Shown here: positions 24,015 to 58,600 of the stretch, piece after piece
Layout of the letters: each line of letters starts with the position of its first letter
Position numbering within the stretch: the first letter of the stretch is position 1
Assembly: GCA_009914755.4 (NCBI GenBank)
Contig: CP068257.2
Location: 6,240,001-6,304,000 of the forward strand
DNA length: 64,000 nucleotides
Direction of reading: 5' to 3'
Origin: the human T2T-CHM13v2.0 reference genome, Homo sapiens
Made by a program: the position numbers and the translations under genes
Notes under the pieces: generated by a model
What the model was told of the DNA's origin: nothing
The model's database searches: none
What the model saw: the letters and a program-made list of their open reading frames with translations, nothing else

Positions 24015-24134
24015 TCAGAATTTCACGGACGGACACGGGCAGAGAGAAGCCGCCGTGCTCCGTGCACCTCAGCCGGCCTGTGCACTGCGGCAGGAGCAGC
24101 CAGGAGGCCTGCCCTGACAGCCAGCCAGACGCTC

Positions 24135-24143
24135 TGATAAAGG
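24135..24143 (-). promoter_or_regulatory. Degenerate TATA-like box (tttatcag on the - strand) upstream of the unit D ORF
   Basis: Positional homologue of the box in the other units. The motif is mutated. Confidence 0.2.
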
Positions 24144-24786
24144 CCTGCAGGCAGGCATGCTCCACCCCTTGATGAATGGCGGTGAGTCCTGGGACAGACC
24201 GCCCACCCTGGAAGGGTCGCAGAGAGCCGAGGCCTGCTGGTGGTGTGGTGGGGGGAGAGGGTGTGGTGATGGTGGCGATCAGGCTGGAGAGCCTAAGAGG
24301 AAGGGGGCGAGGGGGAAGGGGTGAGGGGGCGCGTTTCTGGGGCTGGCTCTCCGGACCTCTCCAGGAATGCCGTGGGAACTGGAAGCCACTCTCTGGGCTC
24401 CCACGCATCTTCAGCAGGGAGAAACGGGACTGGGTGGGTAGAGGGAGTGTGGAACTCAACCTCCGTGGGAGTCTGGAGTGTTCCATGCCCTCTCTCCGTG
24501 AAGGAGGCAGTGCCTGTGGGTGTGGCCGTTGCCGGGACAGCCTCACACGCGCAGGCATGTGGCTCTCATTCATCAACACGTAGGAGACCAGAGCGAGACC
24601 CCAGAGAGAAGATGCCTCCCCGGCGTGATGGCCTGACGATGGACTACCGTGTGCAGCAACATGGGGAGTCTGCAGTGTGGCCGGTTTAGAAACTGGGAAG
24701 GAGAGCGAATGCACCATGCTGGTCTTCCACCCTTCCCTGCATGTTTCCGGGTGCCCGCAGAGCTCCGGGAGCAAACAGTCAGCATG

Positions 24787-28855: not shown

Positions 28856-29562
28856 TAAACAGCGTTGGAAGGTGTTGGGAGAACCTCAGCGGGAATTTCA
28901 CGGACCGACAAGGGCACAGAGAGAACTGAGACCTCCCTTGCACGTCAGCCAGGGTGCTCAATGAGCGCAGGTCTAGCCAGGAGGCTGTCAAAGAGAGCTA
29001 GAGGTCTGGTTTCTGCCGCCAGGTGGTCCATGGTGGCAGCTGGGAGGCTGCAGAAGCACGGGCGCGACAGTGACGGTGGCGCGGAGCCGCAGAGGCGGCA
29101 AGCCGCCGGAGGGGTGTGAGGCCTGGAGGCTGCGCGGTACCGGTGTTTCACGGGACGGGGGTCTCCACCCAGCCCAGGGGAGGATGCATTTTCCTGGGCT
29201 GGAGTGTGGGTGTGGGGAGGGGGTGATCAGGCGGGGTGGGGTGGTGGAAAGGCATGAGAACACTGCCTGGGCTGCTCCCACAGCCCAGGCGACTGCCCGC
29301 AATCCCTCGCGTGCACAGTAGGCGGCCAACCTGCTGGTATCTGGACTGGCTCTGGGATCCCCGGGATGCCCAGGAAAGAATGGCAGTTCTCCGCTGGGTG
29401 GAGCCTCTCACCAGGCCTAGACCTAGAAGGCAGGAATCCCAGGCCGGTCAGCCTGGTGGATGGGGCGGGGGGAAGACACGTCCCTCCATAGCCAGCCAGG
29501 TGTTCCCCGGGAAACACAGGCCACCGCCCTGCCCCGACCCGACACCTTCCCAACCCCGCGTC

Positions 29563-31002
<1,440 letters not shown>

Positions 31003-31628
31003 TCACGAATGGTTGTGAGCCCTCGGACAGCCCGCCCCACCACGGAAGGATCCCAGGGCCTCGAGTCCTGTGGCAGGGGTGTGGTGGAGTGGGGTGGGAG
31101 GGCGTGGTGATGGCCGTGGTGGGGCCGGAGACACGAAGAGGAAGTGGGAGAGGGGGAAGGTGTGGGGCGGGGGCGTTTCAGGCGCTGGCTCTTAGGACTG
31201 CTCCAGGAATCCCGAGGGAACTGGAAGCCACTCTCTGGGCTCCCATGCGTCTTCAGCAGGGAGAAACCGGCCTGCGAGGGTGGAGGGGAGTGTAGAACTG
31301 AATATCCATGGGAGTCTTGAGTGTTCCAGGCCCTCTCTCCGTGAAGGAGGCAGTGCCTGTGGGTGTCGCCATTGCCAGCGCAGTCTCACAAAGGCAGGCG
31401 TTTGGCTCTCGTTCATTTCCACGTTGGAGACCAGAGCCAGACCCCAGAGAGAAGATGCCTCCACGGCGTGATGGCCTGACGATGGATTCCTGTGTGCGGC
31501 AACATGGGAAGTCTGCAGTGTGGCCGGTTTGGAAACTGGCAAGAGAGCGAAGGCACCATACCAGTCTTCCACCCTTCCCTGCATGTTTCCGGGGGCCTGC
31601 AGAGCTCCGGGAGCAAACAGTCAGCATG

Positions 31629-34600
31629 ACACATCTCTGAACTGATCAACAAAGTGATGTAACTCTTGTCTAGGTTCTACCTACAAGGGCTTTGTGACAT
31701 ATCACTGCACTGATCACCCAGGTCATTCAACTCTTGTCTAGGATCTGCCTACAGGGGGTATTGTGAAATATCTCTGCACTGATCAACTAGGTGATGTTAC
31801 CCTTGCTAGGCTCTGCCTACAGGGGCGTTTTCACATACCCCTGAACTGATGACAAAGGTGATGTAACTCATGCCTAGACTTTGCCTACAGGGCACATTGT
31901 GACATATCTCTGCACTGATCACTCAGGTGATGTAACTATTGTCTAGGCTCTGCTTAAAAGGGCCTTGTCACATATCTCTGCACTGATCATCCAGGAGATG
32001 TAACTCTTGCCTAGGATCTGCTTACAGGTGGTATTGTGACATATCTCTGCACTGATCACCTAAGTGATGTAACAGTTGTGTAGGCTCTGCCTACAGGGGC
32101 ACCTTGACATATCTCTGCACTGTTAACCGAGGTGATGTAACACTTGTCTAGGCTGTGCCCACAGGGGGATTGAGACATATCTCTGCAATGATCGCGAGGT
32201 GATCGAAGTCTTGCGTGGTCTCTGCCTACTGGGGACATTGTGACATATCTCTGCACTGATCTCCCAGGTTCTGTAACTTTAATCTAGTCTCTGGCTACAA
32301 GGCATTGTGACATATCACTGCACTGATCACCCAGATGATATAACTCTTGTCTAGGCTCTACCTACAGGGGGATTGTGACATATCTCTGCAATGATAACCC
32401 AGATGATATAACTCTTCTCTAGGATCTGCCTACATGGTGATTTGTGACATATACCTGCAATGATCACCCAGGTGATATACCACTTGTCAAGGCTCTGCCT
32501 AGAGGGGCATTGCAATGTATCTCTGCAGTGATCACCTAGGTCATGTAACTCCTGTCTAGGCTCTGCCTACAGTGGCATTGTGACATATCTCTGCACTGAT
32601 CAACCAGGTGATGTAACTCTTTTCTAGGATCTGCCTACAGGGTGCTTTGTGACATATCCCTGCAATGATCACCCAGGTGATGTACCACTTGTCAAGACTC
32701 AGCCTACAGAGACATTGTGATGTATCTCTGCACTGATCACCTAGGTCATGTAACTCTTTTCTAGGCTCTGCCTACCGTGGCATTTTGACATATCTTTGCA
32801 CTGATCACCCAGGTGATGTAACAATTATCTAGGATCCGCCTAAAGGGACTTTGTGACATAACTCTGCACTGATCATCCAGGTGATGGAGCATTTGTCTAC
32901 GATCTGCCTAAGGGGGCATTGTGACATATTTCTGCACTGATCACCCAGGTGACGGACTCTTGTCTTGGATCTGCCTATGGGGGCATTGTGACATACCTCT
33001 GCACTGATCACCCAGGTGATATAACTGCTGTATAAGCTGTGCCTACAGGGGAATTGTGAGAGATCTCGCCACTGATCACCCAAGTGATGAAACTATTGTC
33101 TAGGCTTTGCCTACAATGACATACCTTTGCACTGATAATCCAGGTGATGTAACTCATCTAAGTCCTGCCTACAGGAGCTTAGTGACATATCTCTGCACTG
33201 ATCACTTAGGTGATTTCACACTTTTATAAGCACTGCCTACAGGGAATTTTGACAAATCTCTGCACTGATCACCTAGGTGACGTAAACCTTGTCTGCCCAC
33301 TGCCCAAAGGGGGCACTGGGAAATATCTCTGCACTGATCACCCAGGTGATTCAACTCTTGTCTAGGTTCTGCCTACAAGGGGTAATGTGAAATATCTCTG
33401 CACTGATCAACTAGGTGATGTAACTCTTGTCTAGGCTCTGACTACAGGGTACATTGTGACATATCTCTGCACTGATCACCCAGGTGATGCAACTCTTCTC
33501 TATGCTGTGCCTACAGGGGACATTGTGACATATCTCTGAACTGATCACCCAGGTGATGCAACTCTTTTCTATGCTCTGCCTACAGGGGGCATTGTGATAT
33601 ATCGCTGCACTAATCACCCAGGTGATTCCACTCTTGTCTAGGATCTGCCTACAGGGGGTATTGTGAAATACCTCTGCACTGATCAACTTGGTGATGTAAC
33701 TCTTGTCTAGGCTCTGCCTGCAGGGGTGTTTTCACATATCCCTGAATTGATGACAAAGGTGATGTAACTCTTGTCTAGGCTCTGCCTATGGGGGCATTGT
33801 GACTTATCTCTGCACTGATCACGCAGGAGATGTGACACTTGTCTAAGCTCTGCCTAGAGGGACATTGGGACATGTCACTGCACTAATCTCTGAGGTGATG
33901 TAAAACTTGTCTAGGCTTTGCTTACAGTGGGATTTATGACATATCTCTGCACTGATCACCCAGGTGATGTAACTCTTGTCTAGGCTCTGCTTACAGGGGG
34001 TATTGTGAGATATATCTGCACTGATCACTCAGGCGATGTAACCCTGGTCTAGGCTCTGCCTACAGGGGCATTTTCACATATCACTGTACTGATCATGGAG
34101 ATAATGTAACTCTTGTATAGGCTTTGCCTACAGGGGACATTGAGACATATCTCTTCACTGATCACCGAGGTGATGTATCTCTTGTCTATGCTCTGCCTAC
34201 TGGAGACATTGTGATATATCTCCGCACTGATAACCCAGGTGATGTCACTTTTGTCAAGGATATGGCTACAGGCAGATTGTGACATGTCACTGCACTGATC
34301 ACATAGCTGATGTAACACTTGTCTAGGCTCTGGCAACACGGAGCTTGTGACACATCTATGCACTGATCACCCAGGTGATGTAAACCTTGTCTAGGCTCTG
34401 CCAAAAGGAGGCATTGTGACATAACTCTGCAATGATCACCCAGCTGATGGGACTCTTGTCCAGGCTCTGCCTACAGAGGCATTGTGACGTGTCTACTCAG
34501 TGATCACGCAGGTGATGTAACTCATGTCTATATCTGCCTACTGGCGGCATTGTGTCATATTTCTGCACTGATCACCCTGGTGATGGACTCTTGTCTTGGA

Positions 34601-37600: not shown

Positions 37601-39312
37601 TCTGCCTACAGGGGCATTGTGACATATCTCTGCACTGATCACCCTGGTTATGTAACTCTTGTCTAGGCTCTGCCTACGGGGGCATTGTGACTTATCTCTG
37701 CACTGATCACCCAGGAGATGTAACTTTTGTCTAGGCTCTGCCTACTGGAGACATTGTGACATACCTCCACACAGATCACCCAGGTGATGTCACTTTTGTC
37801 AAAGATATGGCTACAGGGACATTGTGACATGTCACTGCACTGCATACACATCTGATGTAACAGTTGCCTAGGCTCTGGCTAACGGGGGCTTGTGACACAT
37901 CTCTGCACTGATCACCCATGTGATGTATCCCTTGTCAAGGCTCTGCCAAAAGGGGGCATTGTGACATAACTCTTCACTGATCACCCATGTGATGGGACTC
38001 TTGTCTAGGCTCTGCCTACAGGGACATTGTGACGTATCTCTGCAGTGATCACGCAGGTGATGTACCTCTTGTCTATATCTGCGTACTGGCGGCATTGTGG
38101 CATATTTCTGCATTGATCACACAGGTGATGGACTCTTTTCTTGGATCTGCCTATAGAGGCATAATTACATATCTCTGCACTGATCACTCATGTGATGTAA
38201 CGCTTGTCTAAGCTGCGCCTAAAGGGGAATTGTGACAGATATCTCCAGTGATCACCCAGGTGATGGAACAATTTTCTGGGATTTGTCTACAGGGGGTTTT
38301 GTGACATATCTTTGCACTGATCACCCAGGAGATGTAACTCTTGGTTAGGGTCTGCCTACAGGGGCTTTGTGACATATCTCTACACTGATCACCCATGTGA
38401 TGTAACTCTTTTCTAGGCTCCACCTAAAGGGGTTATTTTGACATATATCTGCACTGATCACCCAGGTGATGTAACTCTTGTCAAGGCTAAACCTACAGGG
38501 GGTATTGTGAAGTATCTCTTCCCTGATCACCCAGGTGATGTAACTCTTGTCTAGGCTCTGCCTGCAGGGGCTTTGTGACATATTTCTACACTGATCACCA
38601 AGGAGATGTAATTCTTGTTTAGGCTTTGCCTACTGGGTCTTAGTGATATATTTCTGTACTGATCACCCAGGTGATGTAACTGTTCTGTAGTTTCCACCTT
38701 GCAGAGTTATTTTGACGTATCTCTGCACTGATTACCCAGGTGATGTAACCCTTGTCTAAGCTCTGCCTACAGGGGCATTGTGACAGCTCTCTCCACTGCT
38801 CACCCAGGTGATGTAACAATTGTCTGGGCTTTGCCTACAGGGGGCTTTGTGATATACATTTCCACTGATCAAACAGGTGATGTAACCCTTGTCAAGGTTC
38901 TGCTTACAGGGGCTTTGTGACATATCTCTGCACTGATCATCCCAGGGAGGAAACATTTATCTACACTCTGCCTACAGGAGGTTTTAGTACTTACCCCTGC
39001 ACTGATCACTAGGTGATGTAACACTTGTCTAGGCTCTGTCTACACAGGAATTTTCACTTATCTCTACACTGATCACCTAAGTGATGTAAACCTTTTCTAG
39101 GTTCATCCTACTGGGGATTTCTCACATACCTATGCACTGATCACCGAGGTGATGTAAATCATTTCCAGGCTTTTTGTACAAGAGACATTGTGATATATCT
39201 CTGCACTGATCACCCAAATGATGCAAATCTTCTCTAGGCTCCGCAGGGAGGGGGAATTGTGACATATTTCTGAACTAATCATCCAGGAGATGTAACTGTT
39301 CTCCAGGCTTTG
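31629..39312 (-). repeat. Beta-satellite array (- polarity), the longest spacer in the window at about 7.7 kb
   Basis: 68-69 bp monomers. Contains recurring variant blocks (69-bp gatgcaactcttctctatgc runs at about 33400-33700 and 37440-37650). Confidence 0.9.
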
Positions 39313-40010
39313 ACTAAAGAGAGTCGGAAGGTGTTCGGAAAGCCTCAGCCAGAATTTCACTGACGGACAGGGGCACAGAGAGGTCAGCGGGCTCCCTTGC
39401 ACGTCAGCCGGGGTGCACAATGAGCGCAGGTCTAGCCAGGAGGCCGGCAAAGAGAGTTAGAGGTTTGCGTTCCGCCACCAGTCGTTCCATGGTGGCAGCT
39501 GGGAGGCTGCTGGGGTACGGGCGGGCCGCTGACGGTATCGCGGGGGCGCAGAGTAGGCGAGCCGCCGGAGGGGTGTCAGGCCCGGACGCTGTGCGGGTCC
39601 GGTGTTTCACAGGACATGGGTCTCACCCAGCCCAGGGGAGGACGCATTTTCTGAGGGTTGGGGGTGGGGTGGGGTGGGGATCGTCAGGCGGGGGTGGGGT
39701 GGTGGAAAGGCATGAGAGCTCTGCCTGGGCTGTTCCCACAGCAAAGGCGGCTGCCCGCCTACCCGCACGTGCGCAGTAGGCGGCCCACTTGCTGGTACCT
39801 TGGCCGGCTCTGTGGTCCCCAGGATGCCTAGGAAAGAATAGCAGTTCTCCCCTTTGTGGAGCGTCTCACCGGGCCTAGACCTAGAAGGCAGGAATCTCAG
39901 GCCAGTCAGCCCGGTGGAGGTGGTGGGAGGAAGACACGCCCCTCCATAGCCAGCCAGTTGTTCCCCATTAAGCAGAGGCCACCGCCCTGCCCCGACCCGA
40001 CCCCGTCCCA

Positions 40011-41460
<1,450 letters not shown>

Positions 41461-42084
41461 TCATGAATGGCGGTGAGCCCTGGGACAGCACGCCACATCC
41501 TGGAAGGGTACCAGGGCGCCGAGGCCTGTGGCCGGTGGCTGGTGAGGTGGGAGGGAGGGCGTGGTGATGGGGGTGGTGGGGCAGGAGATATGAAGAGGAA
41601 GGGGGCGAGGGGGAAGGGGTGAGGAGGGTGCGTTTTGGGAGCTGGCTCTTCGGACCTCTCAAGGAATCCCGTGGGAACTGGAAGCCACTCTCTGGGCTCC
41701 CACGCGTCTTCAGCAGGGAGAAGCCGGCCTGGGAGGGTGGAGGGGAGTGTGGAACTGAACCTCCGTGGGAGTCTTGAGTGTTCCAGGCCCTCTCCGTGAA
41801 GGAGGCAGTGCCTGTGGGTGTCGCTGTTGCCGGGACAATCTCACACACGCAGCCGTGTTGCTCTCATTCATTTTCACGTAGAAGACCAGAGCGAGAACCC
41901 AGAGAGAAGATGCCTCCCCGGCGTGATGGCCTGACATTGGATTCCCGTGTGCGGCAATATGGGGAGTCTGCAGTGTGGCCGGTTTGGAAACTGGCAAGGA
42001 GAGCAAAGGCACCATGCCAGTCTTCCACCCTTCCCTGCATGTTTCCGGGTGACCGCAGAGCTCCGGGAGCAAACATTCAGCATG

Positions 42085-45000
42085 AAACATCTCTGAACTC
42101 ATCAACAAAGTGATGTAACAGTTGTCTAGGCTCTGCCTACAGGTGCTTTGTGACATATCTGTGCACTGATCACCCAGGTGATGGGACTTTTGTCTAGACT
42201 CTGCCTATGGGTGCATTGTGAGATATCTCTACACTGATCAACCAGGTGATGTAACTCTTGTGTTGGATCAGCCTATGGGGACATTGTGACATATTTCTGC
42301 ACTGATCACCCAGATGAAGGGACCCTTGTCTAGGCTCTGCGTATGGGGCTTTGTGACATATCTCTGCACTGATCACCCAGGCGAAGTAAAGCATGACTAG
42401 GCTCTGCCTACAGGGCATAGTGACATATCACTGCATTGATCACCAAGGTGATGTAACTCTTGTCCAAACTCTGCCTATAGGGGGCCTTGTGACATATCTC
42501 TGCACTGATCATCTTGGTGATGTAACTATTGCTTATGCTCTCCCTGCAGGGGCATTGTGAAATATCAGAGCACTGATCACCCAGGTGATGGGACTCTTCT
42601 CTAGGCTCTGCCTACTTGGGGCATTGTCACATATTTCTGCACTGATCAGCCAGGTGACAGGCTCTTGTCTAGGCTATGCCTACAGTGGCATTGTGACATA
42701 TCTCTGCACTGATCACCCAGGTGATGTAACTCTTTTCTAGGATCTGCGTACAGGGTGCTTTGTGACATATCCCTGCAATGATCACCCAGGTGATGTACCA
42801 CTTGTCAAGGTTCTGCCTACAGGGACATTGCGATGTATCTCTTCACTGATCACCTAGGTCATGTAACCCTTGTCTAGGCTCTGCCTACAGTGGCATTGTG
42901 ACATGTCTCTGTACTGATCATCCAAGTGATGTAACTCTTATCTAGGATCTGCCTAAAGGGACTTTGTGACATAACTCTGCACTGATCATCCAGGTGATGA
43001 GGCTTTTGTCTAGGCTCTGCCTAAGGGGGCATTGTGACATATTTCTGCACAGAGCAACCAGGTGATGGACTCTTGTCTTGGATCTGCCTATGGGGGCATT
43101 GTGACATATCTCTGCACTGATCACACAGGAGATGTAACTGTTGTATGAGCTCTGCCTACAGGGAAATTCTGAGAGATCTCTCTACTGAACACCCAAGTGT
43201 TGTAACTATTGTCTAGGCTTTGCCTACAGGGGACATTGTGACATATCTCTGCAATGATCACCCAGGTGATGCATCTCTTCTCTATGCTCTGCCTACAGGG
43301 GACATTGCGACATATCTTTGCACTGATCACCCAGGTGATGCAACTCTTCTCTATGCTCTGACTACAGGGGACATTGTGACACATCCCTGCACTGATCAGC
43401 CAGGTGATGCAACTCTTCTCTATGCTCTGCCTACAGGGGGAATTGTGACATATCTGTGCCCGGATCACCCAGGTGATGTAACTCTTTTCTAGTGTCTGCC
43501 TACAGAGGGCGTTGTGACATCACTCTGCACGGATCACCCGTGTTATGTAACTCTTGTCTAGGCTCTGCGTACAGGGACATTGTGACTTATCTCTGCACTG
43601 ATCACCCAGGAGATGTGACTCTTGTCTAAGCTCTGCCTAGAGGGACATTGGGACATATCTCTGCACTGATCGCTGGGGTGATGTAAAACTTGTCTAGGCT
43701 TTGCCTACAGTGGGTTTTATGACATATCTCTGCATTGGTCACCCAGGTGATGTAAGTCTTGTCTGGGCTCTGCTTACAGGGGTTATTGTGAGATATCTCT
43801 GCACTGATCACCCAGGTGATGTAACTCTTGTCTAGCCTCTCCCTACAGGGGCATTTTAACATATCACTGCACTGATCACCGAGGTGATGTAACTCTTATA
43901 TAGGCTTCGGCAACAGGGGTCATTGAGACATATCTCTGCACTGATCACCGAGGTGATGCAACTCTTGTCTGGGATCTGCTTACGTGGGGCATTTTGACAT
44001 ATCTCTGCCCTGATCACCCAGGTGATGTAACTCTTATCTAGGCTCTGCCTATTGGAGACATTGTGACATATCTCCGCACTGATCACCCACGTTATGTCAC
44101 TTTTGCCAAGGATATGGCTACAGGGACATTGTGACATGTCACTGCACTGATCACACAGCTGATGTAACTCTTGTCTAGGCTCTGGCTACAGGGGCTTTTG
44201 ACACATCTCTGCACTGATCACCCAGGAGATGTAACACTTGACTAGGCTTGGCCTACAGGGGATTTGTGACATATTTCTGCATTGATCACCCAGGTGATGT
44301 AACTCTTGCTTAGGCTCTGACTACAGGGGCTTTGTGACATATTTCTGTACTGATAACCCAGGTGATGTAACTCTTTTCTAGGCTCCACCTACAGGGGGTA
44401 TTGTGACATATCTCTGCACTGATCAACCAGGTGACGGATTGTTTTCTTGGATTTGCCTATGGGGGCATTGTGACATATATCTGCACTGATAACGCAGGTG
44501 ATGTAACACTGGTCTAAGCTCTGCCTAAAGGGGCATTGTGACAGGTCTCTGCTCTGATCACTCAGGTGATGTAACCATTTTCTAGGGTTTGCCTACAGAG
44601 GGCTTTGTGACATACCTTTGCACTGATCACTCAGGTGATGTAACACATCTACGTTTGCCGACAGGAGCTTTGTGCCATATCTCTGCACGGATCTCTTCGG
44701 TGATGTAACACTTTTATAAGCACTGCCTACAGGGAATTTTGACAAATCTCCCCACTGATCACCTTGGTGATGTAACTCTTTTCTAGGATCTGCCTACAGG
44801 GTGCTTTGTGACATATCTCTGCACTGATCACCCAGGTGATTCAACTCTTGTCTAGGATATGCCTACAGGGGGTATTCTGAAATATCTCTGCACTGATAAA
44901 CTAGGTAATGTAAGACTTGCCTAGGCTCTGCCTACAGGGGCTTTTTCACATATCCCTGAATTGATGACCAAGGTGATGTAACTCTTGCCTAGGCTTTGCC

Positions 45001-48000
45001 TACAGGGGACATTGTGACATAACTCTGCAGTTATCACCCAGGTGATGCAACTCTTCTCTATGCTCTGCCTACAGGGGACATGGTGACATATCTCTACACT
45101 GATCACCCAGGTGATGTACCTATTTTCTATTCTCTGCCTACAGAGGGCGTTGTGACATCACTCTGCACGGGTCACCCGGGTTATGTAACTCTTGTCTAGG
45201 ATCTGCCTATGGGAACACTGTGACTTATGTCTGCACTGATCACCCAGGAGATGTGACTCTTGTCTAAGCTCTGCCTATAGGCATATTGGGACATATCTCT
45301 GCACTGATCTCTGAGGTGACATAAAATTTGTCTAGGCTTTTCCTACAGTGGGATTTATGTCATATCTCTGCACTGATCACCCAGGTGATGTAACTCTTGT
45401 CTAGGCTCTGCCTACAGGGGCTATTGTGTGATATCCCTGCACTGATCACCCAGGTGATGTAACTCTTGTCTAGGCTCTGCCTACAGGGGCATTTTCACAT
45501 ATCACTGCACTGATCACAGAGATGATGTAACTCTTGTATAGGCTTCGACGACAGGGGCATTGAGACATATCTGTGCACTGATCACCGAGGTGATGCAACT
45601 CTTGTCTTGGATCTGCTTATAGGGGGCATTGTGACATATCTCTGCCCTGATCACCCAGGTGATGTAACTCTTGTCTAGGCTCTGCCTACTGGAGACATTG
45701 TGACATATCTCTGCACTGATCACCCAGGTGATGTCACTTTTGTCAAGGATATGGCTACAGGGACATTGTGACATGTAAATGCACGATCACACATCTCATG
45801 TAACTCTTGTCTAGGCTCTGGCTAGAGGTGGCTTGTGACACATCTTTGCACTGATCACCCATGTGAAGTAACTATTGTTTAGGCTCTGCTTAAAGGGACC
45901 TTGTCGCATATCTCTGCACTTATCACCCAGGTGATGTAACACTTGTTTAGGCTCTGCTTACAGAAGGTATTGTGACATATCTCTGCACTGATCACCTAAG
46001 TGTTGTAACAATTGTGTAGGCTCTGACTACAAGGGTATTTTGAAATATCCCTGCACTGTTAACCGAGGTGATGTAACTCTTGTATAGGCTGTGCCCACAG
46101 GGGAATTGAGACATAACTCTGTACTGATCACGAGGTGATCCAACTCTTGCCTGGTCTCTGCCTACTGGGGACATCGTGACATATCTCTGCACTGATCTCC
46201 CAGGTGCTGTAACTTTAATCTCGGCTCTGGCTACACGGCATTGTGACATATCACTGCACTGATCACCCAGATTATATAACTCTTGTCTAGGCTCTGCCTA
46301 CAGGGGGCTTGTGACATATCTCTGCACTGATCACCCAAGTGATATAACAATTCTCCAGGATTTGCCTACAGGGTGCTGTTTGACATATCCCTGCAATGAT
46401 CTCCCAGGTGATATACCACTTATCAAGGCTCTGCCTACAGGGGCATTGCCATGTATCTCTGCACTGATCACCTAGGTCATGTAACTCTTGTCTAGGCTCT
46501 GCCTACAGTGGCATTGTGACATATCTCTTCACTGATCACTCAGGTGATGTAACTCTTTACTAGGATCTGCCTAAATGGTGCTTTGTGACATCTCACTGCA
46601 ATGATCACCCAGGTGATGTACCACTTGTCAAGGCTCAGCCTACAGGGACATTGCGATGTATCTCTGCACGGATCACCTAGGTCATGTGAAACTTGTCTAG
46701 GCTCTGCCTACAGTGGTATTGTGGCATATCTCTGCACTGATCATCCAAGTGATATAACTCTTGTCTAGGATCTGCCTAAAGGGACTTTGTGACATAACTC
46801 TGCACTAATCATCCAGGTGATGGGGCTCTTGTCTAAGCTCTGCCTAAGGGGGCATTGTGACATATTACTGCACTGATCACCCAGGTGACGGACTATTGTC
46901 TTGAATCTGCCTATGGAGGCATCATGACGTATCTCTGCACTGATCACCCATGTGATGTAACTGTTGTATATGCTTCGCCTACAGGGGAATTGTGAGAGAT
47001 CTCGCCACTGTTCACGCAAGTGATGTAACTATTGTCTAGGCTTTGCCTACAGAAGTCTTTGTGACATACCTTTGCACTGTTAACCCAGATAGTGTAACTC
47101 AACTAAGTTCTGCCTTCAGGAGCTTTGTGACATATCTCTGCACTGATCACTTAGGTGATGTAACACTTTTATAAGCACTGCCTACAGGGAATTTTGACGA
47201 ATCTCTGCACTGATCACCTAGGTGAAGTAACTCTTGTCTACCCTCTGCCCAAAGGGGGCATTGTGAAATATTTCTCCACTGATCACCCAGGTGATTCAAC
47301 TCTTTTCTAGGATCTGCCTACAGGGGGTATTGTGAAATATCTCTGCACTGCAAAACTAGGTGATGTAACACTTGTCTAGGCTCTGCCTACATGGGCGTTT
47401 TCACATATCCCTGAACTGATGACAAAGGTGATGTAACTCTTGCCTAGCCTTTACCCACAGGGGACGTTGTGACATATCTCTGCACTGATCACCCAGGTGA
47501 TGTAACTCTTCTCTATGCTCTGTCTACAGGGCAGATTGTGACATAACTCTGCACTGATCACCCAGGTGATGCAACTCTTCTCTATGCAGTGCCTACAGGG
47601 GGTATTGTGACATACCTCTGCACTGATAACCCAGGTGATGTAACCCTTTTCTACTCTCTGCCTACTGAGGGCATTGTGACAACACTCTGCACGGAATACC
47701 CGTGTTATGTAACTCTTGTCTAGGCCCTGCCTATGGGGGCACTGTGGCTTATCTCTGCACTGATCACCCAGGAGATGTGACACTTTTCTAAGCTCTGCCT
47801 GGAGGGACATTGGGACATTTCTCTGCACTGATCGCTGAGGTGATGCAAAACTTGTCTAGGCTTTGCGTACAGTGGGTTTTATGACATATCTCTGCACTGA
47901 TCACCCAGGTGATGTAACTCTTGTCTAGGCTCTGCTTACAGAGGGTATTGTGAGATATCTCTGCACTGATCACCCAGGGGATGTAACTCTTGTCTAGGCT

Positions 48001-50259
48001 GTGCCTACTGGAGACATTGTGACATATCACTGCACTGATCACCGAGATGTTGTAACTCTTGTATAGGCTTCACTGACAGGGGGCATTGAGACATATCTCT
48101 ACACTGATCACCGAGGTGATGCAACTATTGTCTGGGATCTGCTTACAGGGTGCATTGTGACATATCTCTACCCTGATCACCCAGTTGATGTAACTCTTGT
48201 CTAGGCTCTGCCTACTGGAGACATTGTGACATATCTCCGCACTGATCACCCAGGTGATGTTAGTTTTGTCAAGGATATCGCTACAGGGACATTGTGACAT
48301 GTCACTGCACTGATCACACAGCTGATGTAACTCTTGTCTAGGCTCTGGCTACAGGGGCATTGTGACATAACTCTGCACTGATCACCCAGGTGATGTGACA
48401 CTTGTCTAGGCTCTGCCTACAGGGGCATTGTGAAATATCTCTGCAGTGATAACGCAAGTGATGTAACTTTTGTCTATATCTGCCTACTGGCGGCATTGTG
48501 GCATATTTCTGCACTGATCACCCAGGTGATGGACTCCTGTCTTGGATTTGCCTATGGGGGCATAGTGACATATCTCTGCACTGATCACTCATGTGATGTA
48601 ACGCTTGTCTAAGCTGCGCCTAAAGGGGAATTGTGACAGATATCTCCCCTGATCACCCAGATGATGTAACGATTTTCTGTGATTTGTCTACAGGGGGATT
48701 TGTGACATATCTTTGCACTGATCACCCAGGAGGTGTAACTGTTGTCTATGCTTGGCCTATATGGGATTTGTGACATATTTCTGCACTGATTACCCAGGTG
48801 ATGTAACTCTTGTCTAGGCTCCACCTCCAGGGGGTATGGTGACGTATCTCTGCACTGATCACTCAGTTGATGTAACATTTATCTAGGCTCTGCCTACAGA
48901 GATGTTTTGACATAGCTGTGCACAGATCAACTAGATTATGTAACTCTTGTCCACTCTCTGCCTACAGGGGGCATTGTGAAATATCTCTGCACTGATTACC
49001 CAGGTGATGGGACTCTTTTCTATACTCTGCCTAGAGGGGGAATTTGTGACAAATCTCTGGACTGATCACCCAGACGATGGAAGTCTTGTCTAGGCTCTGT
49101 CTATGAGGTCATTGTGTCAAATATCTGCACTGATCACCCAGTTGATTTAACTCTTGTCTAGGCTCTGTCTAGAGGGATTTTTCTAACATATCACTGCACT
49201 GATCACCTAGGTGATGTAAGCCTTGTATGGGCGTTGCCTACAGAAGGCTTTGTGACAGATCTGTGCACTGATCTCTGAGGTAATGCAACTCTTGTCTAGG
49301 CACTGCCTACAGGGTACATTGGTACATACCTCTGCACTGATCACCCAGGTGATGGACTTTTGTCTTAGATGTGCCTACATGGACATTGTGACACATCTCT
49401 GAACTGATCAACCAAGTGATGAAACTCTTGTCTAGGCTCTGCCTACAGGGGCTTTGTGACACATCTCTGCACTGATCACCCTGGGGAGGGAACTCTTGTC
49501 TATGCTCTGCCTACAGGAAGCTTTATGACTTATACCTGCACTGATAACCTAGGTGATGTAACACTTGTCTAGGCTCTGCCTACACGGGAATTCTCACATA
49601 TCTCTGCACTGATCACCGAGGTGATGTAACTCCTGTCTATGTTCAGCCTGCAGGAGAGTTTTGACATATCTCTGCACTGATCACCCAGGTGATGTAACCC
49701 TTGTCTAAGCTCTGCCTACACGGGCATTGTGACAGATCTCTCCACTGCTCACCCAGCTGATGTAACAATTGTCTGGGATTTGCCTACAGGGGCTTTGTGA
49801 TATACATTTCCGCTGATCAAACAGGTGATGTAACCCTTGTCAAGGTTCTGCTTATAGGGGCTTTATGACATATCTCTGCACTGATCACCCCAGGAAGGAA
49901 ACACTTGACTACACTCTGCCTACAGGAGGCTTTACGACTTATCCCTGCACTGATCACTAGGTGATGTAACACTTGTCTAAGCTCTGTATACACGGGAATT
50001 TTCACATATCTCTACACTGCTCACCTAAATGATGTACCGCTTGTGTAGGTTCAGCCTACTGTGGATTTCTGATGTACCTATGCACTGATCACCGAGGTGA
50101 TGTAAATCATTTCCAGGCTTTTTGTACAGGGGACATTGTGATATATCTCTGCACTGATCACCCAAATGATGGAAATCCTCTCTAGGCTCCGCAGGGAGGG
50201 TGCATTGTGACATATCTCTGAACTGATCATTCAGTTCTGTAACTATTCTCCAGGCTTTG
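42085..50259 (-). repeat. Beta-satellite array (- polarity, about 8.2 kb)
   Basis: 68-69 bp tandem monomers with the same flank series adjacent to the cores. Confidence 0.9.
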
Positions 50260-51125
50260 ACTAAAGAGTGTCAGAAGGTGTTGGGAGATCCTCAGCCGGA
50301 ATTTCACGACAAGGGCACAGAGAGGCGAGAGGGCTCCCTTACACGTCAGCCAGTGTGCGCAATGAGCGCCGGTCTAGCCAGGAGGCCAGCAAAGAGAGCT
50401 AGAGGTCAGCGTTCCACCGCCAGGCGCCCCATGGTGGCAGCTGGGAGGCTGCAGGGGCACGGGCTCTTTTAAAGGCCCGCAGGCAGGCAGGCTCCACCAC
50501 TTCATGAATGGCGGTGAGCCCTGGGACAGCCCGCCCCACACCAGAAGGGTCCCAGCTCGTCGAGGCCTGTAGCCGGAGGGTGATCGGGTGTGGGGGGATG
50601 GCGTGGTGATGGTGGTGGTGGGGCTGGATAGACGAAGAGGAAGGGGGCGAAGGGGAAAGGGTGAGGGGGGCGCGTTTCGGGAGCTGGATCTCCGGACCTC
50701 TCCAGGAATCCCGCGGGAACTGGAGGCTGCTCTCTGGGCTCCCACGCGTTTTCAGCAGAGACAAACTGGCCTGGGAGTGTGGCCGGGAGTGTGGAACTGA
50801 ACTTCCGTGAGTCTTCAGTGTTCCAGGCCCTCTCTCCGTGAAGGAGGCAGTGCCTGTGGGTGGCGCCATTGCCAGGACAGTCTGACACACGCAGCCATGT
50901 GGCTGTCATTTATTTCTACTTTGGAGACCAGAGCGAGACCCCAGAGAGAAGATGCCTCCCTAGCGTGATGGACTGACGATGGATTCCCGTGTGCAGCAAC
51001 ATGGGGAGACTGCAGTGTGGCCGGTTTGGAAACTGGCAAGGAGAGCGAAGGAACCATGCCGGTCTTCCACACTTCCCTCATGTTTCCGGGTGCCCGCAGA
51101 GCTCCGGGAGCAAACAGTTAGCATG
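50260..51125 (-). repeat. D4Z4-like core unit G, internally deleted (3' tail fused to promoter and LSau-like region, ORF absent)
   Basis: The tail sequence (50260-50465) is joined at cacgggc|tcttttaaaggcccgcaggcagg directly to the TATA-box region. Upstream-region homology then continues to 51125. About 1.9 kb present in the other cores is missing. Confidence 0.8.
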
Positions 51126-53759
51126 ACACATCTCAGAACTGTTCAACAAAGTGATGTAACACTTGTCTAGGCTCTGCCTACAGGGGCTTTGTGACATATC
51201 TCTGCACTGTTCACCCAGCTGATGGGAGTTTTTTCTAGGCTCTGCCTGTGGGGACATTGTGACATATCTCTACACTGATCACCTTGGTGATGTAACTCTT
51301 GTGTTGGATCTGCCTATGGGGGCATTGTGACATATTTCTACACTGATCGCCCAAGTGATGGGACTCTTGTCTAGGCACTGTGGATGGGGGCTTTGTGACT
51401 TATCTCTGCACTGATCACCCAGGTGATGTAACGATTAACTAGGCTCTGCCTACGGGGCATAGTGACATATCACTGCATTGATCACCGAGGTGATGTAACT
51501 CTTGTCCAGGCTCTGCCTATAGGGGGCCTTGTGACATATCTCTGCACTGATCACCTAGGTGATGCAACTCTTGCTTACGCTCTGCCTGCAAGGCATTATG
51601 AAATATCTCTGCACTGATCACCAAGGAGATGGGAATCTTCTCTAAGCTCTGCCTACTGGGGGCATTGTCACATATTTCTGCACTGATCACCCATGTGATG
51701 GACTCTTGTCTTGGATTTGCCTATGGGGGCATTGTGACATATCTCTGCACTGATCACCCAGGTGATGTAACTCTTGTCTAAGCTCTGCCTAAAAGGGCAT
51801 TGTGACAGATCTCTGCACTGATCACTCAGGTGATGTAACTATTGTCTAGGCTCTGCTTAAAGGGGCCTTGTCACATATCTCTGCACTGATCACCCAGGTG
51901 ATGTAACTCTTGTCTAGGCTCTGCTTAAACCTGGTATTGTGACGTATCTCTGCACTGATCACATAAGTGATTTAACACTTGTGTAGGCTCTGCATTCAGG
52001 GGCATTTTGACATATCTCTGCACTGTTAACCGAGGTGATGTAACCCTTGTCTAGGCTGTGCCCACAGGGGGATTGAGACATATCTCTGCACTTATTCCGA
52101 GAAGATCCAACTCTTGCCTGGTCTCTGCCTACTGGTGACATTGTGACATATCTCTGCACTGATCTCCCAGGTGCTCTAACTATATTCTAGGCTCTGGCTA
52201 CACGGCATTGTGACATATCACTGTACTGAACACCCAGGTGATATAACTCTTGTCTAGGCTCTGCCTACAGGGGGCTTGTGACATATCTCTGCACTGATCA
52301 CCCAGGTGATATAACTCTTCTCTAGGATCTGCCTACAGAGTGCTTTGTGACATATCCCTGCAATGATCACCCAGGTGATATACCATATGTCAAGGCTCTG
52401 CCTACAAGGGCATTGTGACAGAACTCTGCACTGATCACCCAGGTGATGGGACTCTTGTCTAGGCTCTCCCAACAGTGGCTTTGTGACATATCCCTTCACT
52501 GATCACCCAGGTGATGCAAATCTTTTGTAGGATCTGCCTACAGGGTGCTTTGTGACATATCCCTGCAATGATCACCCAGGTGATATACCACTTGTCAAGG
52601 CTCTGCTTACAGGGGCATTGCGATGTATCTCTGCACTGATCACCTAGGTCATGTAACTCTTGTCTAGGCTCTGCCTACAGTGGCATTGTGACATATCTCT
52701 GCACTGATCATCCAAGTGATGTAACTCTTTTCCAGAATCTGCCTAAAGGGACTTTGGGACACAACTCTGCACTGATCATCCAGGTGTTGGGCTTTTGTCT
52801 AGGCTCTGCCTAAGGGGGCAATGTGACATATTTCTTCACTGATCACCCAGGTGACTGAGTCTTGTCTTGGATCTGCCCATGGGGGCATTGTGACATATCT
52901 CTGCACTGAACACCCAGGTGATGTAAGTGTTGTACAAGCTCTGCCTACAGGGGAATTGTGAGGGATCTCACCACTGATCACCATAGTGATGTAAATATTG
53001 TCTAGGCTTTGCCAACAGGAGGCTTTGGAACATACCTTTGCACTGATCACCTAGGTGATGTAACTCATCTAAATTCTGCCTACAGGAGCTTTGTGACACA
53101 TCTCTGCACTGATCACTTAGTTGATGTAACACTTTTATAAGCACTGCCTATAGGAAATTTTGACAAATCTCTGCACTGATCACATATGTGATGTAACCCT
53201 TGTCTACCCTCTGCCCAAAGGGGGCATTGTGAAATATCTCTGCATTGATAACCCAGGTGATTCAACTCTTGTCTAGGATCTGCCTACAGGGGGTATTGTG
53301 AAATATCTCTGCACTGATCAGCTAGGTGATGTAACTCTTGTCTTGGCTCTGCCTACATGGGCGTTTTCACATATCCCTGAACTGATGACAAAGGTGATGT
53401 AACTCTTGTCTTGGCTCTGCCTACATGGGCGTTTTCACATATCCCTGAACTGATGACAAAGATGATGTAACTCTTGCCTAGGCTTTGCCTACAGGGGACA
53501 TTGTGACATATCTCTGCACTGATGAAGTGATGAAACCCTTGTCTAGGTTTAGCCTATTGGGAATTTCTGTCATACCTATGCACTGATTACGGAGGTGATG
53601 TAAATCATTTCCAGGCTTTTTGTACAGGGGACATTGTGATATGTCTCTGCACTGATCACCCAAATGATACAAATCTTCTCTATGCTCTGCAGGGAGGCTG
53701 CATTGTGACATGTTTCTGAACTGATCATTCAGGAGATGTAACAATTCTCCAGGCTTTGA
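51126..53759 (-). repeat. Beta-satellite array (- polarity)
   Basis: 68-bp monomers. A perfect 68-bp tandem duplicate lies at about 53326-53461. Confidence 0.9.
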
Positions 53760-55658
<1,899 letters not shown>

Positions 55659-58600
55659 AAAGCCTGGAGAATAGGTACATCTCCTGGATGATCAGTTCAG
55701 AAATGTGTCACAATGCCCCCTCCCTGCGGAGCATAGAGAAGATTTGCATCATTTGGGTGATCAGTGCAGAGATATAACACAATGTCCCCTGTACAAAAAG
55801 CCTGGAAATGATTTACATCACCTTGGTGATCAGTGCATAGGTATGTCAGAAATCCCCAGTAGGCTGAACCTAGACAAGGGTTACATCACTTAGGTGATGA
55901 GTGTAGAGATATGTGAAAATTCCCGTGTAGACAGAGCCAAGACAAGTGTTACATCACCTAGTGATCAGTGCAGGGATAAGTCGTAAAGCCTCCTTTAGGC
56001 AGAGTGTAGAAAATTGTTTCCTCCCTGGGGTGATCAGTGCAGAGAAATGTCACAAAGCCCCTGTAAGCAGAACCTTGACAAGGGTTACATCACCTGTTTG
56101 ATCTGCGGAAATGTATATCACAAAGCCCCCTGTAGGCAAAACCCAGACAATTGTTACATCACCTGGGTGAGCAGTGGAGGGATCTGTCACAATGCCCCTG
56201 TAGGCAGAGCTTAGACAAGGGTTACATCACCTGGGTGATCAGTGAATAGATATGTCAAAACGTTCCTTTAGGCTGAACCTAGACAGGAGTTACATCAACC
56301 AGGTGATCAGTGCACAGATATGTGAGAATTCCTGTGTAGGGAGAGCCTAGACCAGTTTTTCATCAACTAGGTTATCTGTGCAGGTATAAGTCATAAAGCC
56401 TCCTGTAGGCAGAGCGTAGACAAGAGTTCCATCCCCAGGGTGATCAGTGCAGAGATGTGTCACAAAGCCCCTGTAGGCAGAGGCTAGACAATAGTTTCAT
56501 CACTTGTTTGTTCAGTTCAGAGATGTGTCACAATGTCCATGTAGACAGATCTAAGACAAGCGTCCATCACCTGGGTGATCAGTGCAGAGATATGTCCCGA
56601 TGTCCCCTGTAGGCACTGCCTAGACAAGAGTTGCATCACCTCAGAGATCAGTGCATAGATATGTCACAAAGCCTTCTATAGGCAAAGCCCATACAAGGCT
56701 TACATCACCTAGGTGATCAGTGCAGTGATATGTCACACAAATCCCTGTAGACAGACCGTAGACAAGAGTTACATCACCTGGGTGATCAGTGCAGATATTT
56801 GACACAATGCCCCCATAGACAGAGTCTAGACAAGACTTCCATCTCCTGCGTGATCAGTGCAGAGATATGTCACAAATCTCCCTCTAGGCAGAGTATAGAG
56901 AAGAGTCCCATCACCTGGGTGACCAGTGCAGAGTTACTTCACAATATCCCCTGTAGACAGAGAGTTGACAAGAGTTACATAACCTACGTGACCTGTGCAG
57001 AGCTATATCAAAACGCCCCTGTAGGCAGATCCTATGTAAATGTTACATCACCTGGGTGATCAGTGCAGAGATACGTCACAATAGCCCCTGTAGGTGGAGC
57101 CTAGAAATGAGTTACATCACCTGGGTGATCAGTGCAGAGATAAGTCACAATGCACCCTGTAAGCTGTGCATAGAGAAGAGTTGCATCACCTGGGTGATCA
57201 GTACAGAGATATGTCACAATGGCCCCTGTTGGCAGAGCACAGAGAAGAGTTGCATCACCTGGGTGATCAGTGCAGAGATATGTCACAGTGCCCCCGTAGG
57301 CAAGGCCTAGGCAAGAGTTACATCACCTTTGTCATCAGTTCAGGGATATGTGAAAACGCCCCTGTAGGCAGAGCCTAGACGAGTGTTACATCACCTAGTT
57401 GATTAGTGCAGAGATATTTCACAATACCTCCTGTAGGCAGATCCTAGACAAGAGTTGAATCACCTGGGTGATCAGTGCAGAGATATTTCACAATGCCCCC
57501 TTTGGGCAGAGGGTAGACAAGAGTTATATCACCTAGGTGATCCGTGCAGAGATTTGACAAAATTCCCTGTATGCAGTGCTTATAAAAGTGTTACATCACC
57601 TAAGTGAGCAGTGCAGAGATATGTCACAAAGCTCCTGTAGGCAGAACTTAGATGAGTTACGTCACCTGGGTGATCAGTGCAAAGGTATGTCACAAAGCCC
57701 CGTGTAGGCAAAGCCTAGAATATCGTTACATCACTTGGGTGATCAGTGGTGAGATTTCTCACAGTTCACCTGTCGGCAGAGCTTATACAACAGTTACATC
57801 ACCTGGGTGATCAGTGCAGAGACATGTCACAATGCCCCCATAGGCAAATCCAAGACAAGAGTCCGTCACCTGGGTGATCAGTGCAGAAATATGTCACAAT
57901 GCCCCCTTAGGCAGAGCCTAGACAAAACCCCATCACCTGGATGATCAGTGCAGAGTTATGTCGCAAAGTCCCTTTAGGCAGTTCCTAGACAATGTTACAT
58001 CACTTGGATAACCAGAGCAGAGATATGTCACAATGCCAATGTAGGCAGAGCATAGACAAGATTTACATGACCTAGGTGATCAGTGCAGAGATGCATCGCA
58101 ATGAACCTGTAGGCAGAGCCTTGACAAGTGGTACATCACCTGGATGAACATTGCAGGGATATGTCACAAAGCACCCTGTAGGCAGATCCCAGAAAATAGT
58201 TACATCACCTGGGTGATCAGTGCAGTGATATGTCACAATGCCACTGTAGGCAGAGCCTAGACAAGAATTACATGACCTAGGTGATCAGTGCAGAGATACT
58301 TCGCAATGCCCCTGTAGCCAGAGCCTTGACAAGTGGTATATCACCTGCGTGATCATTGCAGGGATATGTCACAAGGCACCCTGTAGGCAGATCCTAGAGA
58401 AGAGTTATATCACCTAGGTGATCAGTGCAGAGATATGTCACAAGCCCCCTGTAGGCAGAGCCTAGACAAGGGTTATATCACCTGGGTGATCAGTGCAGTG
58501 ATATGTCACAATGCCGTGTAGCCAGAGCCCAGACTAAAGTTACAGCACCTGGGAGATCAGTGCAGAGATATGTTACAATGTCCCCATTAGGCACAGACCA

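What the first reader, a model, noticed from the sequence alone, without database searches (positions are those of the whole stretch)
50440..50490. Unit G is a deletion derivative: the 3' tail is fused to the TATA-box region and the whole ORF is removed
The junction ...ggctgcaggggcacgggc|tcttttaaaggcccgcaggcaggcaggctccaccac... joins tail sequence (normally about 200 bp 3' of the stop) to the promoter TATA-like box. About 1.9 kb is lost, including the ORF and 5'UTR. There is 3-bp ggc microhomology relative to the intact copies. The result is a solo LSau-like/promoter remnant flanked by the usual satellite series. Deletion variants inside D4Z4-like units are less often documented than whole-unit copy-number changes.
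Basis: seen in the sequence. Interest (0 to 1): 0.5.

Follow-up and report, generated by a model that had tools for sequence, protein, structure and literature searches.

The report
Internally deleted D4Z4-like repeat unit
One copy of a DUX4-pseudogene repeat embedded in primate beta-satellite DNA has lost about 1.9 kb, including the whole gene; the same deletion junction turns up in several other slightly different copies elsewhere, so it is an old, copied variant of a known repeat and is ordinary.

Summary
The window is 68-bp beta satellite interrupted by ~2.9-kb GC-rich D4Z4/DUX4-like units, the "LSAU-BSAT composite" known from human T2T assemblies. Unit G (non-satellite part 50230-51123) aligns to each of six full units with one large gap of 1893-1904 bp, always at 50464|50465, plus only 1-7 bp indels. 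The gap removes 134 bp between the TATA box and the ATG, the 1269-bp double-homeobox ORF and 499 bp of 3' flank. The junction has 3 bp of microhomology (GGC), which random breakpoint pairs reach 7.7% of the time.

New here: the deletion is not private to this unit. Six contigs from seven-plus samples in three metagenome studies (presumably host DNA) carry the identical 27-nt junction. They are 95.7-98.4% identical to G and 96.5-99.3% to each other. An intact-type contig (L002) falls inside the same clade. So one old deletion occurred in one sub-lineage and was then copied by duplication.

All units here are pseudogenes, and none has the 4qA poly(A) signal. ORF-less "partial" D4Z4-like units are already tabulated in T2T surveys. 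Interest is low.

The parts
50230..50464 (-). Retained 3' tail of unit G (235 bp). It corresponds to the last part of the 3' flank of the full units, starting 499 bp after their stop codon and running to the beta-satellite boundary.
   Evidence: BLAST and pairwise alignment to A-F; feature map; TRF array limit at 50229.
50462..50464 (.). 3-bp junction microhomology: GGC on the + strand, GCC in gene sense.
   Evidence: Overlap of the two BLAST blocks. Breakpoint sequences in A-F and L002. Chance expectation P(>=3) = 0.077.
50465..50477 (-). TATA-box motif, mutated: GGCCTTTAAAAGA (intact units have GGCCTTTATAAGA). The deletion starts immediately 3' of it.
   Evidence: The motif lies about 141 nt upstream of the ATG in full units. 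This is the position of the HEFT1 TATAA / D4Z4 TACAA box described in PMC12376486; that equivalence is an inference.
50465..51123 (-). Retained upstream/promoter region of unit G (659 bp; the LSau/promoter-like part of the D4Z4-like unit).
   Evidence: Aligns at 86-88% to the upstream ends of A-F and at 96-98% to L001-L005.
50159..50254 (-). Homologue of the 4qA pLAM exon-3 / poly(A)-signal region, straddling the tail/beta-satellite boundary. The poly(A)-signal position reads GTCACA, not ATTAAA.
   Evidence: The 98-nt pLAM sequence taken from PMC7822190 aligns at 80.2% here and at 78-87% at the same place in every unit.
50282..50399 (-). R2: a diverged copy (~76%) of the 5'UTR/start-codon segment (R1) that follows the TATA box in full units. 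In G it sits about 65 nt downstream of the junction.
   Evidence: Local alignments, score 26-40 against shuffled 12 +/- 2; explicit alignments.
50399..50890 (-). Fortuitous 163-codon ORF that reads across the junction (...AFKRA|RAPAAS...). It is not a gene. It was used as a probe to find other copies of the junction.
   Evidence: no Pfam match; hits.
42089..50229 (.). Flanking 68-bp beta-satellite array on the tail side of G.
   Evidence: TRF: period 68, 119 copies.
51124..53765 (.). Flanking 68-bp beta-satellite array on the promoter side of G.
   Evidence: TRF: period 205 = 3 x 68.
29064..30965 (-). Reference: the segment of full unit E that is missing from G (1902 bp). It comprises 134 bp from TATA to ATG, the 1269-bp ORF (ATG 30831, stop 29565-29563) and 499 bp of 3' flank.
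   Evidence: Homeodomains confirmed in the sister units.

Best explanation
The window is a hominoid beta-satellite array interspersed with ~2.9-kb D4Z4-like units. This is the 'LSAU-BSAT / LSAU-BETA composite', and the units belong to the 5'-truncated D4Z4-pLAM class.

Each full unit reads, in gene sense: about 660 bp of upstream/promoter region, a TATAA box, a 134-bp 5'UTR, a decayed DUX4-type double-homeobox ORF, about 730 bp of 3' flank ending in a pLAM-like segment, then beta satellite.

Unit G descends from such a unit after a single ~1.9-kb internal deletion. One breakpoint lies 3 nt past the TATA box and the other 499 bp past the stop codon. They were joined cleanly at a 3-bp GCC microhomology. 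The most likely mechanism is non-homologous or microhomology-mediated end joining of a double-strand break, or a replication template switch. The mechanism is inferred, not shown.

The deletion did not happen in this unit in situ. It happened once in an ancestor belonging to a sub-lineage about 12% diverged from units A-F. That short element, with its adjacent beta-satellite monomers, was later copied by segmental duplication. This produced a small family of short units now 1-4% apart, of which G is one.

It has no coding capacity. All neighbouring full units are also pseudogenes, and none has the 4qA poly(A) signal. The functional consequence is therefore most likely nil.
For: Shown:
- The spacers are 68-bp beta satellite.
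- The full units carry DUX4-type homeodomains: Pfam PF00046, and PDB DUX4 6e8c at E = 2e-61.
- G has a single gap of 1893-1904 bp against all six units, at one G position.
- Breakpoint sequences and microhomology are; the feature map is.
- The tail is pLAM-like.
- The identical 27-nt junction is present in six independent contigs, L001, L003, L004, L005, L007 and L008, from studies XIAO21-1, CHEN22-1 and AOGA20-1.
- Nine distinct junction-type ORF variants exist in one 90% cluster.
- The deleted copies plus intact-type L002 form one clade at 95.8-99% identity, against 84-89% to A-F.
- All deleted copies share TAAAAGA, while L002 has TATAAGA.
- The flanking beta-satellite monomers of L001 and L003 match G's flanks at 98-100%.

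Literature context:
- LSAU-BETA composites show 80-95% within-array identity near centromeres (bioRxiv 10.1101/2021.07.12.451456).
- T2T-CHM13 holds 319 copies of a ~3.1-kb 5'-truncated D4Z4-pLAM unit, interspersed with BSAT in both orientations (PMC10620044).
Against: - The end-joining mechanism is inferred only from the junction, and 3 bp of microhomology is expected by chance 7.7% of the time.
- The contigs are short metagenome assemblies of presumed host DNA. Their host species is not known, and repeats can be collapsed or chimeric. 'Seven distinct copies' could therefore mix paralogues, alleles and orthologues.
- L002 ends about 60 bp before the tail-side breakpoint, so the intact ancestor is seen on the promoter side only.
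- In the tree L002 nests within the deleted copies rather than being their sister. That pattern needs noise, gene conversion or assembly chimerism to explain it.
- No primate genome could be searched, so copy number and chromosomal location are unknown.
Confidence: 0.82

Rival explanations
1. A recent, private (possibly polymorphic) deletion that occurred in this particular unit of this array, as the first reader implied by proposing a population presence/absence test.
For: Only one short unit exists among the eight units of the window.
Against: The same junction is found in six independent contigs that differ from G by 2-4% and from each other by 0.7-3.5%. G is only 86-89% identical to its neighbours but 96-98% to those contigs.
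Confidence: 0.04
2. The short form is the ancestral 'empty' LSau element, and the 1.9-kb ORF-bearing segment is an insertion (for example the DUX4 retrogene) present in the other units.
For: DUX4 is regarded as a retrogene (PMC12376486). The extra segment starts just after a TATA box. A copy of the 5'UTR (R2) lies next to the junction.
Against: - There is no poly(A) run at the 3' end of the segment, and only 3 bp of duplication.
- The segment includes 499 bp of non-coding 3' flank.
- Intact-type L002 lies inside the short-unit clade and keeps the unmutated TATAA.
- ORF-bearing units are the large majority here, and in T2T-CHM13 there are 319 copies (PMC10620044).
Confidence: 0.04
3. Non-allelic homologous recombination, or single-strand annealing, between the two diverged direct repeats R1 (5'UTR) and R2 (tail) produced the deletion.
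For: R1 and R2 are about 76% identical over 115-137 bp and bracket most of the deleted segment.
Against: The junction is not inside the repeats, and it is out of register by 54 nt. G keeps the ~62 nt that precede R2 in the tail and lacks all of R1.
Confidence: 0.04
4. The same deletion arose independently several times at a fragile or hotspot site.
For: The sequence is GC-rich and repeat-rich. A second rearrangement junction in the window (unit H, 55336-55338) also has 3-bp microhomology.
Against: All seven copies have the identical 27-nt junction. They share the linked TATAA>TAAAA change and cluster together.
Confidence: 0.03
5. An assembly artefact: a collapse or mis-join within a repeat in the source assembly.
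For: Satellite-embedded repeats are hard to assemble.
Against: The junction was recovered independently in assemblies from at least six samples in three studies.
Confidence: 0.01

Closest known systems
LSAU-BSAT (LSAU-BETA) composite repeat: divergent, 5'-truncated ~3.1-kb D4Z4-pLAM units interspersed with beta satellite on human acrocentric short arms, 1q12 and other pericentromeres (Hoyt et al., bioRxiv 10.1101/2021.07.12.451456; Butterfield et al. 2023, PMC10620044)
   Same: 68-bp beta-satellite spacers. ~2.9-3.1-kb GC-rich units carrying a DUX4-like ORF and a pLAM-like end. Units occur in both orientations. Within-array identity is 84-89% (reported 80-95%). Inversion breakpoints are present.
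   Different: Unit G lacks the central 1.9 kb, keeping only the promoter-side 659 bp and the last 235 bp. The species and chromosome of the window could not be established with these tools.
'Partial' D4Z4-like units lacking DUX4 exon 1, from the T2T-CHM13 census (PMC12963445, Table 1)
   Same: A D4Z4-like element in a bsat array with the promoter-side sequence but no >1200-bp exon 1. Such units make up a sizeable fraction of each array; at 1q12, 25 of 56 partial units lack it.
   Different: That census scores presence or absence of modules and does not describe junctions. Whether this particular junction class is among those units was not testable here.
Distal 4qA end of the D4Z4 array (truncated D4Z4 + pLAM + beta satellite)
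   Same: The unit ends in a pLAM-like segment that runs directly into beta satellite. The published 98 nt around the 4qA poly(A) signal aligns at 78-87%.
   Different: The poly(A)-signal position reads GTCACA in every unit of the window. There is no intact ORF upstream, and in G there is no ORF at all.
Known deletions at the FSHD locus (whole-unit D4Z4 contractions; the 4qB-generating deletion discussed in PMC3488192)
   Same: Loss of sequence within a D4Z4-related repeat.
   Different: Those remove integral 3.3-kb units or a D4Z4+pLAM+beta-satellite block. This one is intra-unit, lies in a heterochromatic pseudogene array, and has no link to disease.

Membership tests
LSAU-BSAT composite / D4Z4-like element | Embedded in arrays of 68-bp beta satellite | tested here: met
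   TRF finds period 68 (and multiples) on both sides of G: 42089-50229 and 51124-53765.
LSAU-BSAT composite / D4Z4-like element | Sequence homology to the non-coding parts of D4Z4-like units (upstream/promoter region with a TATAA/TACAA box) | tested here: met
   659 bp align at 86-88% to the upstream ends of six ORF-bearing units. The TATA motif is at the homologous position.
LSAU-BSAT composite / D4Z4-like element | DUX4-type double-homeobox ORF (exon 1, about 1.27 kb) | tested here: not met
   Absent from G. Present but decayed in A-F. G is therefore a partial member, in the sense of the 'partial' class of PMC12963445.
LSAU-BSAT composite / D4Z4-like element | pLAM-like 3' end adjoining beta satellite | tested here: met
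   The published 98-nt pLAM segment aligns at 80.2% to 50254-50159.
LSAU-BSAT composite / D4Z4-like element | Match to the reference D4Z4 sequence / RepeatMasker LSAU consensus, and location in an annotated LSAU-BSAT region of a primate genome | not testable with these tools
   No primate genome or repeat library is available. D4Z4 sequence recalled from memory was used only as a lead.
Expression-competent DUX4 unit (4qA-permissive type) | Intact ~424-codon ORF | tested here: not met
   The ORF is deleted in G. No ORF of 400 aa or more exists in any unit of the window.
Expression-competent DUX4 unit (4qA-permissive type) | ATTAAA poly(A) signal in the pLAM exon 3 | tested here: not met
   The equivalent hexamer is GTCACA in all nine tails.
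End-joining (NHEJ/MMEJ-type) deletion | Single clean junction without inserted or rearranged sequence | tested here: met
   One gap and no filler bases.
End-joining (NHEJ/MMEJ-type) deletion | Short microhomology at the junction, beyond chance | tested here: inconclusive
   3 bp in A, C, E, F and L002. The empirical P(>=3 bp) is 0.077.
End-joining (NHEJ/MMEJ-type) deletion | No in-register extended homology at the breakpoints (excludes NAHR) | tested here: met
   The only nearby homology (R1/R2, ~76%) is offset by 54 nt and is not at the junction.
Retrogene pre-insertion (empty) site | The extra segment ends in poly(A) and is flanked by 7-20-bp target-site duplications | tested here: not met
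   No A-run at the 3' end, and only a 3-bp repeat.
Retrogene pre-insertion (empty) site | Filled units monophyletic to the exclusion of empty ones | tested here: not met
   Intact-type L002 clusters inside the short-unit clade. Caveat: L002 is a short metagenome contig.

The most novel reading that the evidence does not exclude
The short unit may be more than debris. It would be a separately propagating sub-family of the LSAU-beta-satellite composite. In it, the DUX4-type promoter region (with a weakened TAAAA box) sits about 65 nt upstream of a diverged copy of the DUX4 5'UTR (R2) and the pLAM-like exon-3 homologue. That arrangement could make a promoter-only unit driving non-coding transcription into beta satellite. 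Its unique junction would also mark exchanges between heterochromatic arrays.
Probability: 0.07. Interest if true: 0.4.

Novelty: new member of a known kind. Interest (0 to 1): 0.13.

Why it matters
It matters little for biology. The array is made of decayed, non-coding D4Z4-like pseudogenes, reported as heavily methylated in human blood DNA (PMC10620044), and losing one ORF changes nothing obvious.

There are three modest practical points:
- The junction 27-mer is a unique tag for a small sub-family of short units. It could be used to trace duplication and exchange among beta-satellite/LSau arrays once complete genomes are searched.
- Short units keep promoter-side and pLAM-like sequence. They are therefore potential off-targets for the promoter-, DBE-, exon-3- or pLAM-directed PCR and Cas9 assays used in FSHD work.
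- ORFs read from these repeats sit in metagenome and bacterial protein catalogues as 'proteins'. That is host contamination.

Tried and rejected
- MAFFT global alignment of G with the full units misplaced G's tail, producing a spurious 54-nt insertion and a terminal gap. I replaced it with pairwise alignment using a low gap-extension cost.
- The scan of JGI metagenome contigs with a 20-mer across the junction returned one locus, L006. It shares only those 20 bases with the window and is an unrelated 49%-GC contig, so it is a chance match. Roughly a few such hits are expected for a 20-mer in a collection of that size.
- The scan of bacterial/archaeal genome contigs with the 27-mer junction found nothing.
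- Rfam found no family at gathering score anywhere in the window. The MIR8078 mentioned for LSAU composites was not detected.
- The bacterial promoter/terminator scan is irrelevant to a primate sequence and was ignored.
- The supplementary tables of PMC10620044, which list locations of D4Z4-pLAM copies and of the two 'unlinked pLAM' sequences, are not held.
- Species assignment failed. Named protein hits are Pan, Nomascus and contaminant entries at 67-83% identity, which is uninformative for diverged pseudogenes.
- Structure prediction and fold search were not used, because nothing here encodes a protein.

Full report
**What the window is.** The window alternates between roughly 47%-GC stretches and roughly 65%-GC blocks. 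The AT-richer stretches are tandem 68-bp repeats with the beta-satellite consensus, at 71-76% matches between copies.

Self-BLAST defines eight GC-rich units:
- A: 2724-5629, gene on +
- B: 7999-10894, gene on +
- C: 13606-16515, gene on -
- D: 21965-24859, gene on -
- E: 28795-31703, gene on -
- F: 39256-42159, gene on -
- G: 50202-51200, short
- H: about 53594-55822, rearranged

The full units are only 84-90% identical to one another. Their translations contain paired-type homeodomains (Pfam PF00046). They match solved human DUX4 double-homeodomain structures at E = 2e-61 (6e8c). The C-terminal ORF piece of unit E matches ape 'homeobox domain-containing' proteins. No unit has an ORF of 400 codons or more, so all are pseudogenes.

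This is the architecture described in human T2T work as beta-composite or LSAU-BETA/LSAU-BSAT arrays:
- Within-array identity is 80-95% near centromeres (bioRxiv 10.1101/2021.07.12.451456).
- T2T-CHM13 has 319 copies of a ~3.1-kb 5'-truncated D4Z4-pLAM unit, interspersed with BSAT in both orientations (PMC10620044).

I could not determine the species or chromosome. No primate genome is available in these tools.

**Checking the observation.** The quoted sequence is at the stated place. G splits into two blocks that match the two ends of every full unit. Pairwise global alignment gives exactly one large gap (1893-1904 bp) against each of A-F, always between G positions 50464 and 50465. Otherwise there are only 6-8 indels of 1-7 bp, at 86-89% identity.

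On the + strand the tail side reads ...GGCTGCAGGGGCACGGGC. The promoter side resumes with TCTTTTAAAGGCC. In the full units the bases just before TCTTATAAAGGCC are ...CAGCGGC (A, C, E, F), so GGC is shared by both breakpoints. Random breakpoint pairs about 1.9 kb apart in these units show 3 bp or more of microhomology 7.7% of the time. The microhomology is compatible with end joining but proves nothing.

**What was lost and what remains.** Motif mapping on the six full units gives this order in gene sense:
- the TATA motif GGCCTTTATAAGA
- 134 nt to the ATG
- a 1269-nt ORF frame with both homeoboxes
- the stop codon
- 498-499 nt to the tail-side breakpoint

The deletion therefore removes the transcription-start/5'UTR region, the whole ORF, and about 500 bp of 3' flank (not about 200 bp).

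G retains 659 bp of upstream/promoter sequence (50465-51123). It ends in a mutated box, TTTAAAAGA against the intact TTTATAAGA. It also retains 235 bp of tail (50230-50464).

The TATAA motif is at the position of the HEFT1 TATAA / D4Z4 TACAA box described in PMC12376486. That equivalence rests on position and on my recollection of the D4Z4 sequence, and it is an inference.

The tail is pLAM-like. The 98 nt around the 4qA poly(A) signal, as printed in PMC7822190, align at 78-87% to the tail/beta-satellite boundary of every unit, including G at 50254-50159. The poly(A)-signal hexamer is GTCACA everywhere.

**The deletion is shared, not private.** A fortuitous 163-codon ORF reads across the junction (50399-50890, minus strand). 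Searching it against the 5.8-billion-protein collection returned one full-length hit at 95% identity. All other hits stop at the junction.

Its 90% cluster holds nine distinct junction-type sequences (...AFKRARAPAASQLPPWGAWR[W/R]NADL). It also holds one intact-type sequence, P0112 (...AFIRATGWLSGQ...).

I fetched the DNA for six junction-type members: L001, L003, L004, L005, L007 and L008. They come from ENA metagenome assemblies of six samples in the studies labelled XIAO21-1, CHEN22-1 and AOGA20-1.
- All carry the identical 27-nt junction.
- They align to G essentially without gaps at 95.7-98.4% identity.
- They differ from each other by 0.7-3.5%.
- L001 and L003 extend into the flanking beta satellite and match G's own flanking monomers at 98-100%.

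These contigs are presumably host DNA in microbiome samples. That is an inference, and the host species is unknown.

The intact-type contig L002 (2487 bp, from a seventh sample) has TATAAGA followed by GCCACTGG..., that is, normal 5'UTR and ORF sequence. In the 650-715-bp promoter-side segment it is 97.4-98.9% identical to the deleted copies but only 86-89% to A-F. It falls inside the deleted-copy clade in a neighbour-joining tree.

**Interpretation.** A single deletion occurred in one sub-lineage of D4Z4-like units whose intact form still exists. The short element, with its adjacent satellite, was then duplicated several times.

The evidence against recurrent independent deletions:
- identical junctions in all copies
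- the shared TATAA>TAAAA change
- monophyly of the deleted copies

The evidence against the short form being an ancestral empty site:
- no poly(A) or target-site duplication at the ends of the extra segment
- the nesting of L002 within the short-unit clade

Independent recovery in many assemblies argues against an assembly artefact.

NAHR is unlikely, although I noticed a relevant feature. About 115-140 bp following the TATA box (the 5'UTR through the first codons, R1) are ~76% identical to a segment of the tail (R2) that starts about 62 nt after the tail-side breakpoint. The junction is outside these repeats and 54 nt out of register. Homologous exchange between them cannot have produced G. 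They may at most have helped bring the two regions together, which is speculation. The most likely mechanism is therefore end joining or a template switch at GCC. This is inferred from the junction only.

**Comparison with what is known.** Full units here match the published '5'-truncated D4Z4-pLAM' class. ORF-less 'partial' D4Z4-like units are common in the T2T-CHM13 census. For example, at 1q12 only 31 of 56 partial units have an exon 1 longer than 1200 bp, with similar fractions on the acrocentrics (PMC12963445 Table 1). I found no paper describing this particular junction, but the papers searched score modules, not junctions. I therefore file G as a new (or at least not explicitly described) member of a known kind. 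It is a partial LSau/D4Z4-like element of a beta-satellite composite array. It fails the 'has a DUX4 ORF' feature by construction.

**Verdict.** The core interpretation is supported, with three corrections: the distance from the stop codon, shared rather than private status, and partial units not being unusual. Function is most likely none. Interest is low.

Noticed in passing
window 53594-55822 (junction at 55336-55338): Unit H is an inversion junction. 53594-55338 is a normal-orientation unit running from its tail up to about 19 nt before the homeobox-2 WFQN motif (it matches C 13500-15246). It is fused there, with 3-bp GGG overlap, to an inverted 487-bp tail piece (55822-55336, matching C 13500-13986). 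Beyond it the beta satellite runs in the opposite orientation to the end of the window.
   Followed up: partly
window ~11156-11235: Beta-satellite orientation flips between units B and C, so the two units lie tail to tail. The AT skew of the window changes sign here and again at unit H. This fits the many inversion breakpoints reported for beta-satellite arrays (bioRxiv 10.1101/2021.07.12.452052).
   Followed up: partly
every full unit, e.g. C 15771-15630 (R1) and 13812-13672 (R2); in G 50282-50399 (R2 only): There is an internal diverged direct repeat. The ~140 bp after the TATA box (5'UTR, ATG and first codons) are ~76% identical to the pLAM-like end of the 3' tail. So each unit ends in what looks like the start of another, truncated unit just before the beta satellite begins. 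This may bear on the origin of the pLAM region.
   Followed up: partly
beta-satellite monomers adjoining the units, e.g. 49952-50229, 21715-21992, 55689-55966, 10868-11145, 2587-2799, 51125-51339: The satellite monomers immediately flanking the GC-rich units are 93-96% identical between units. They are better conserved than the GC-rich cores (84-90%) and than bulk satellite (71-76%). The composite repeat therefore includes specific flanking monomers. The cores may simply decay faster, for example through CpG loss.
   Followed up: no
P0118; P0001 and P0109-P0117: ORFs read from these primate repeats are present in public protein collections as microbial or metagenomic proteins. One example is 'hypothetical protein Kyoto166A_1130 [Helicobacter pylori]', 83% identical to the DUX4-like C-terminal ORF of unit E. 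This is host-DNA contamination of bacterial and metagenome assemblies.
   Followed up: no
window-wide: unit starts at 2724, 7999, 13606, 21965, 28795, 39256, 50202, 53594: The spacing between successive D4Z4-like units varies from about 3.4 to 10.9 kb, because the beta-satellite spacers differ greatly in length. The composite has no fixed period in this array.
   Followed up: no
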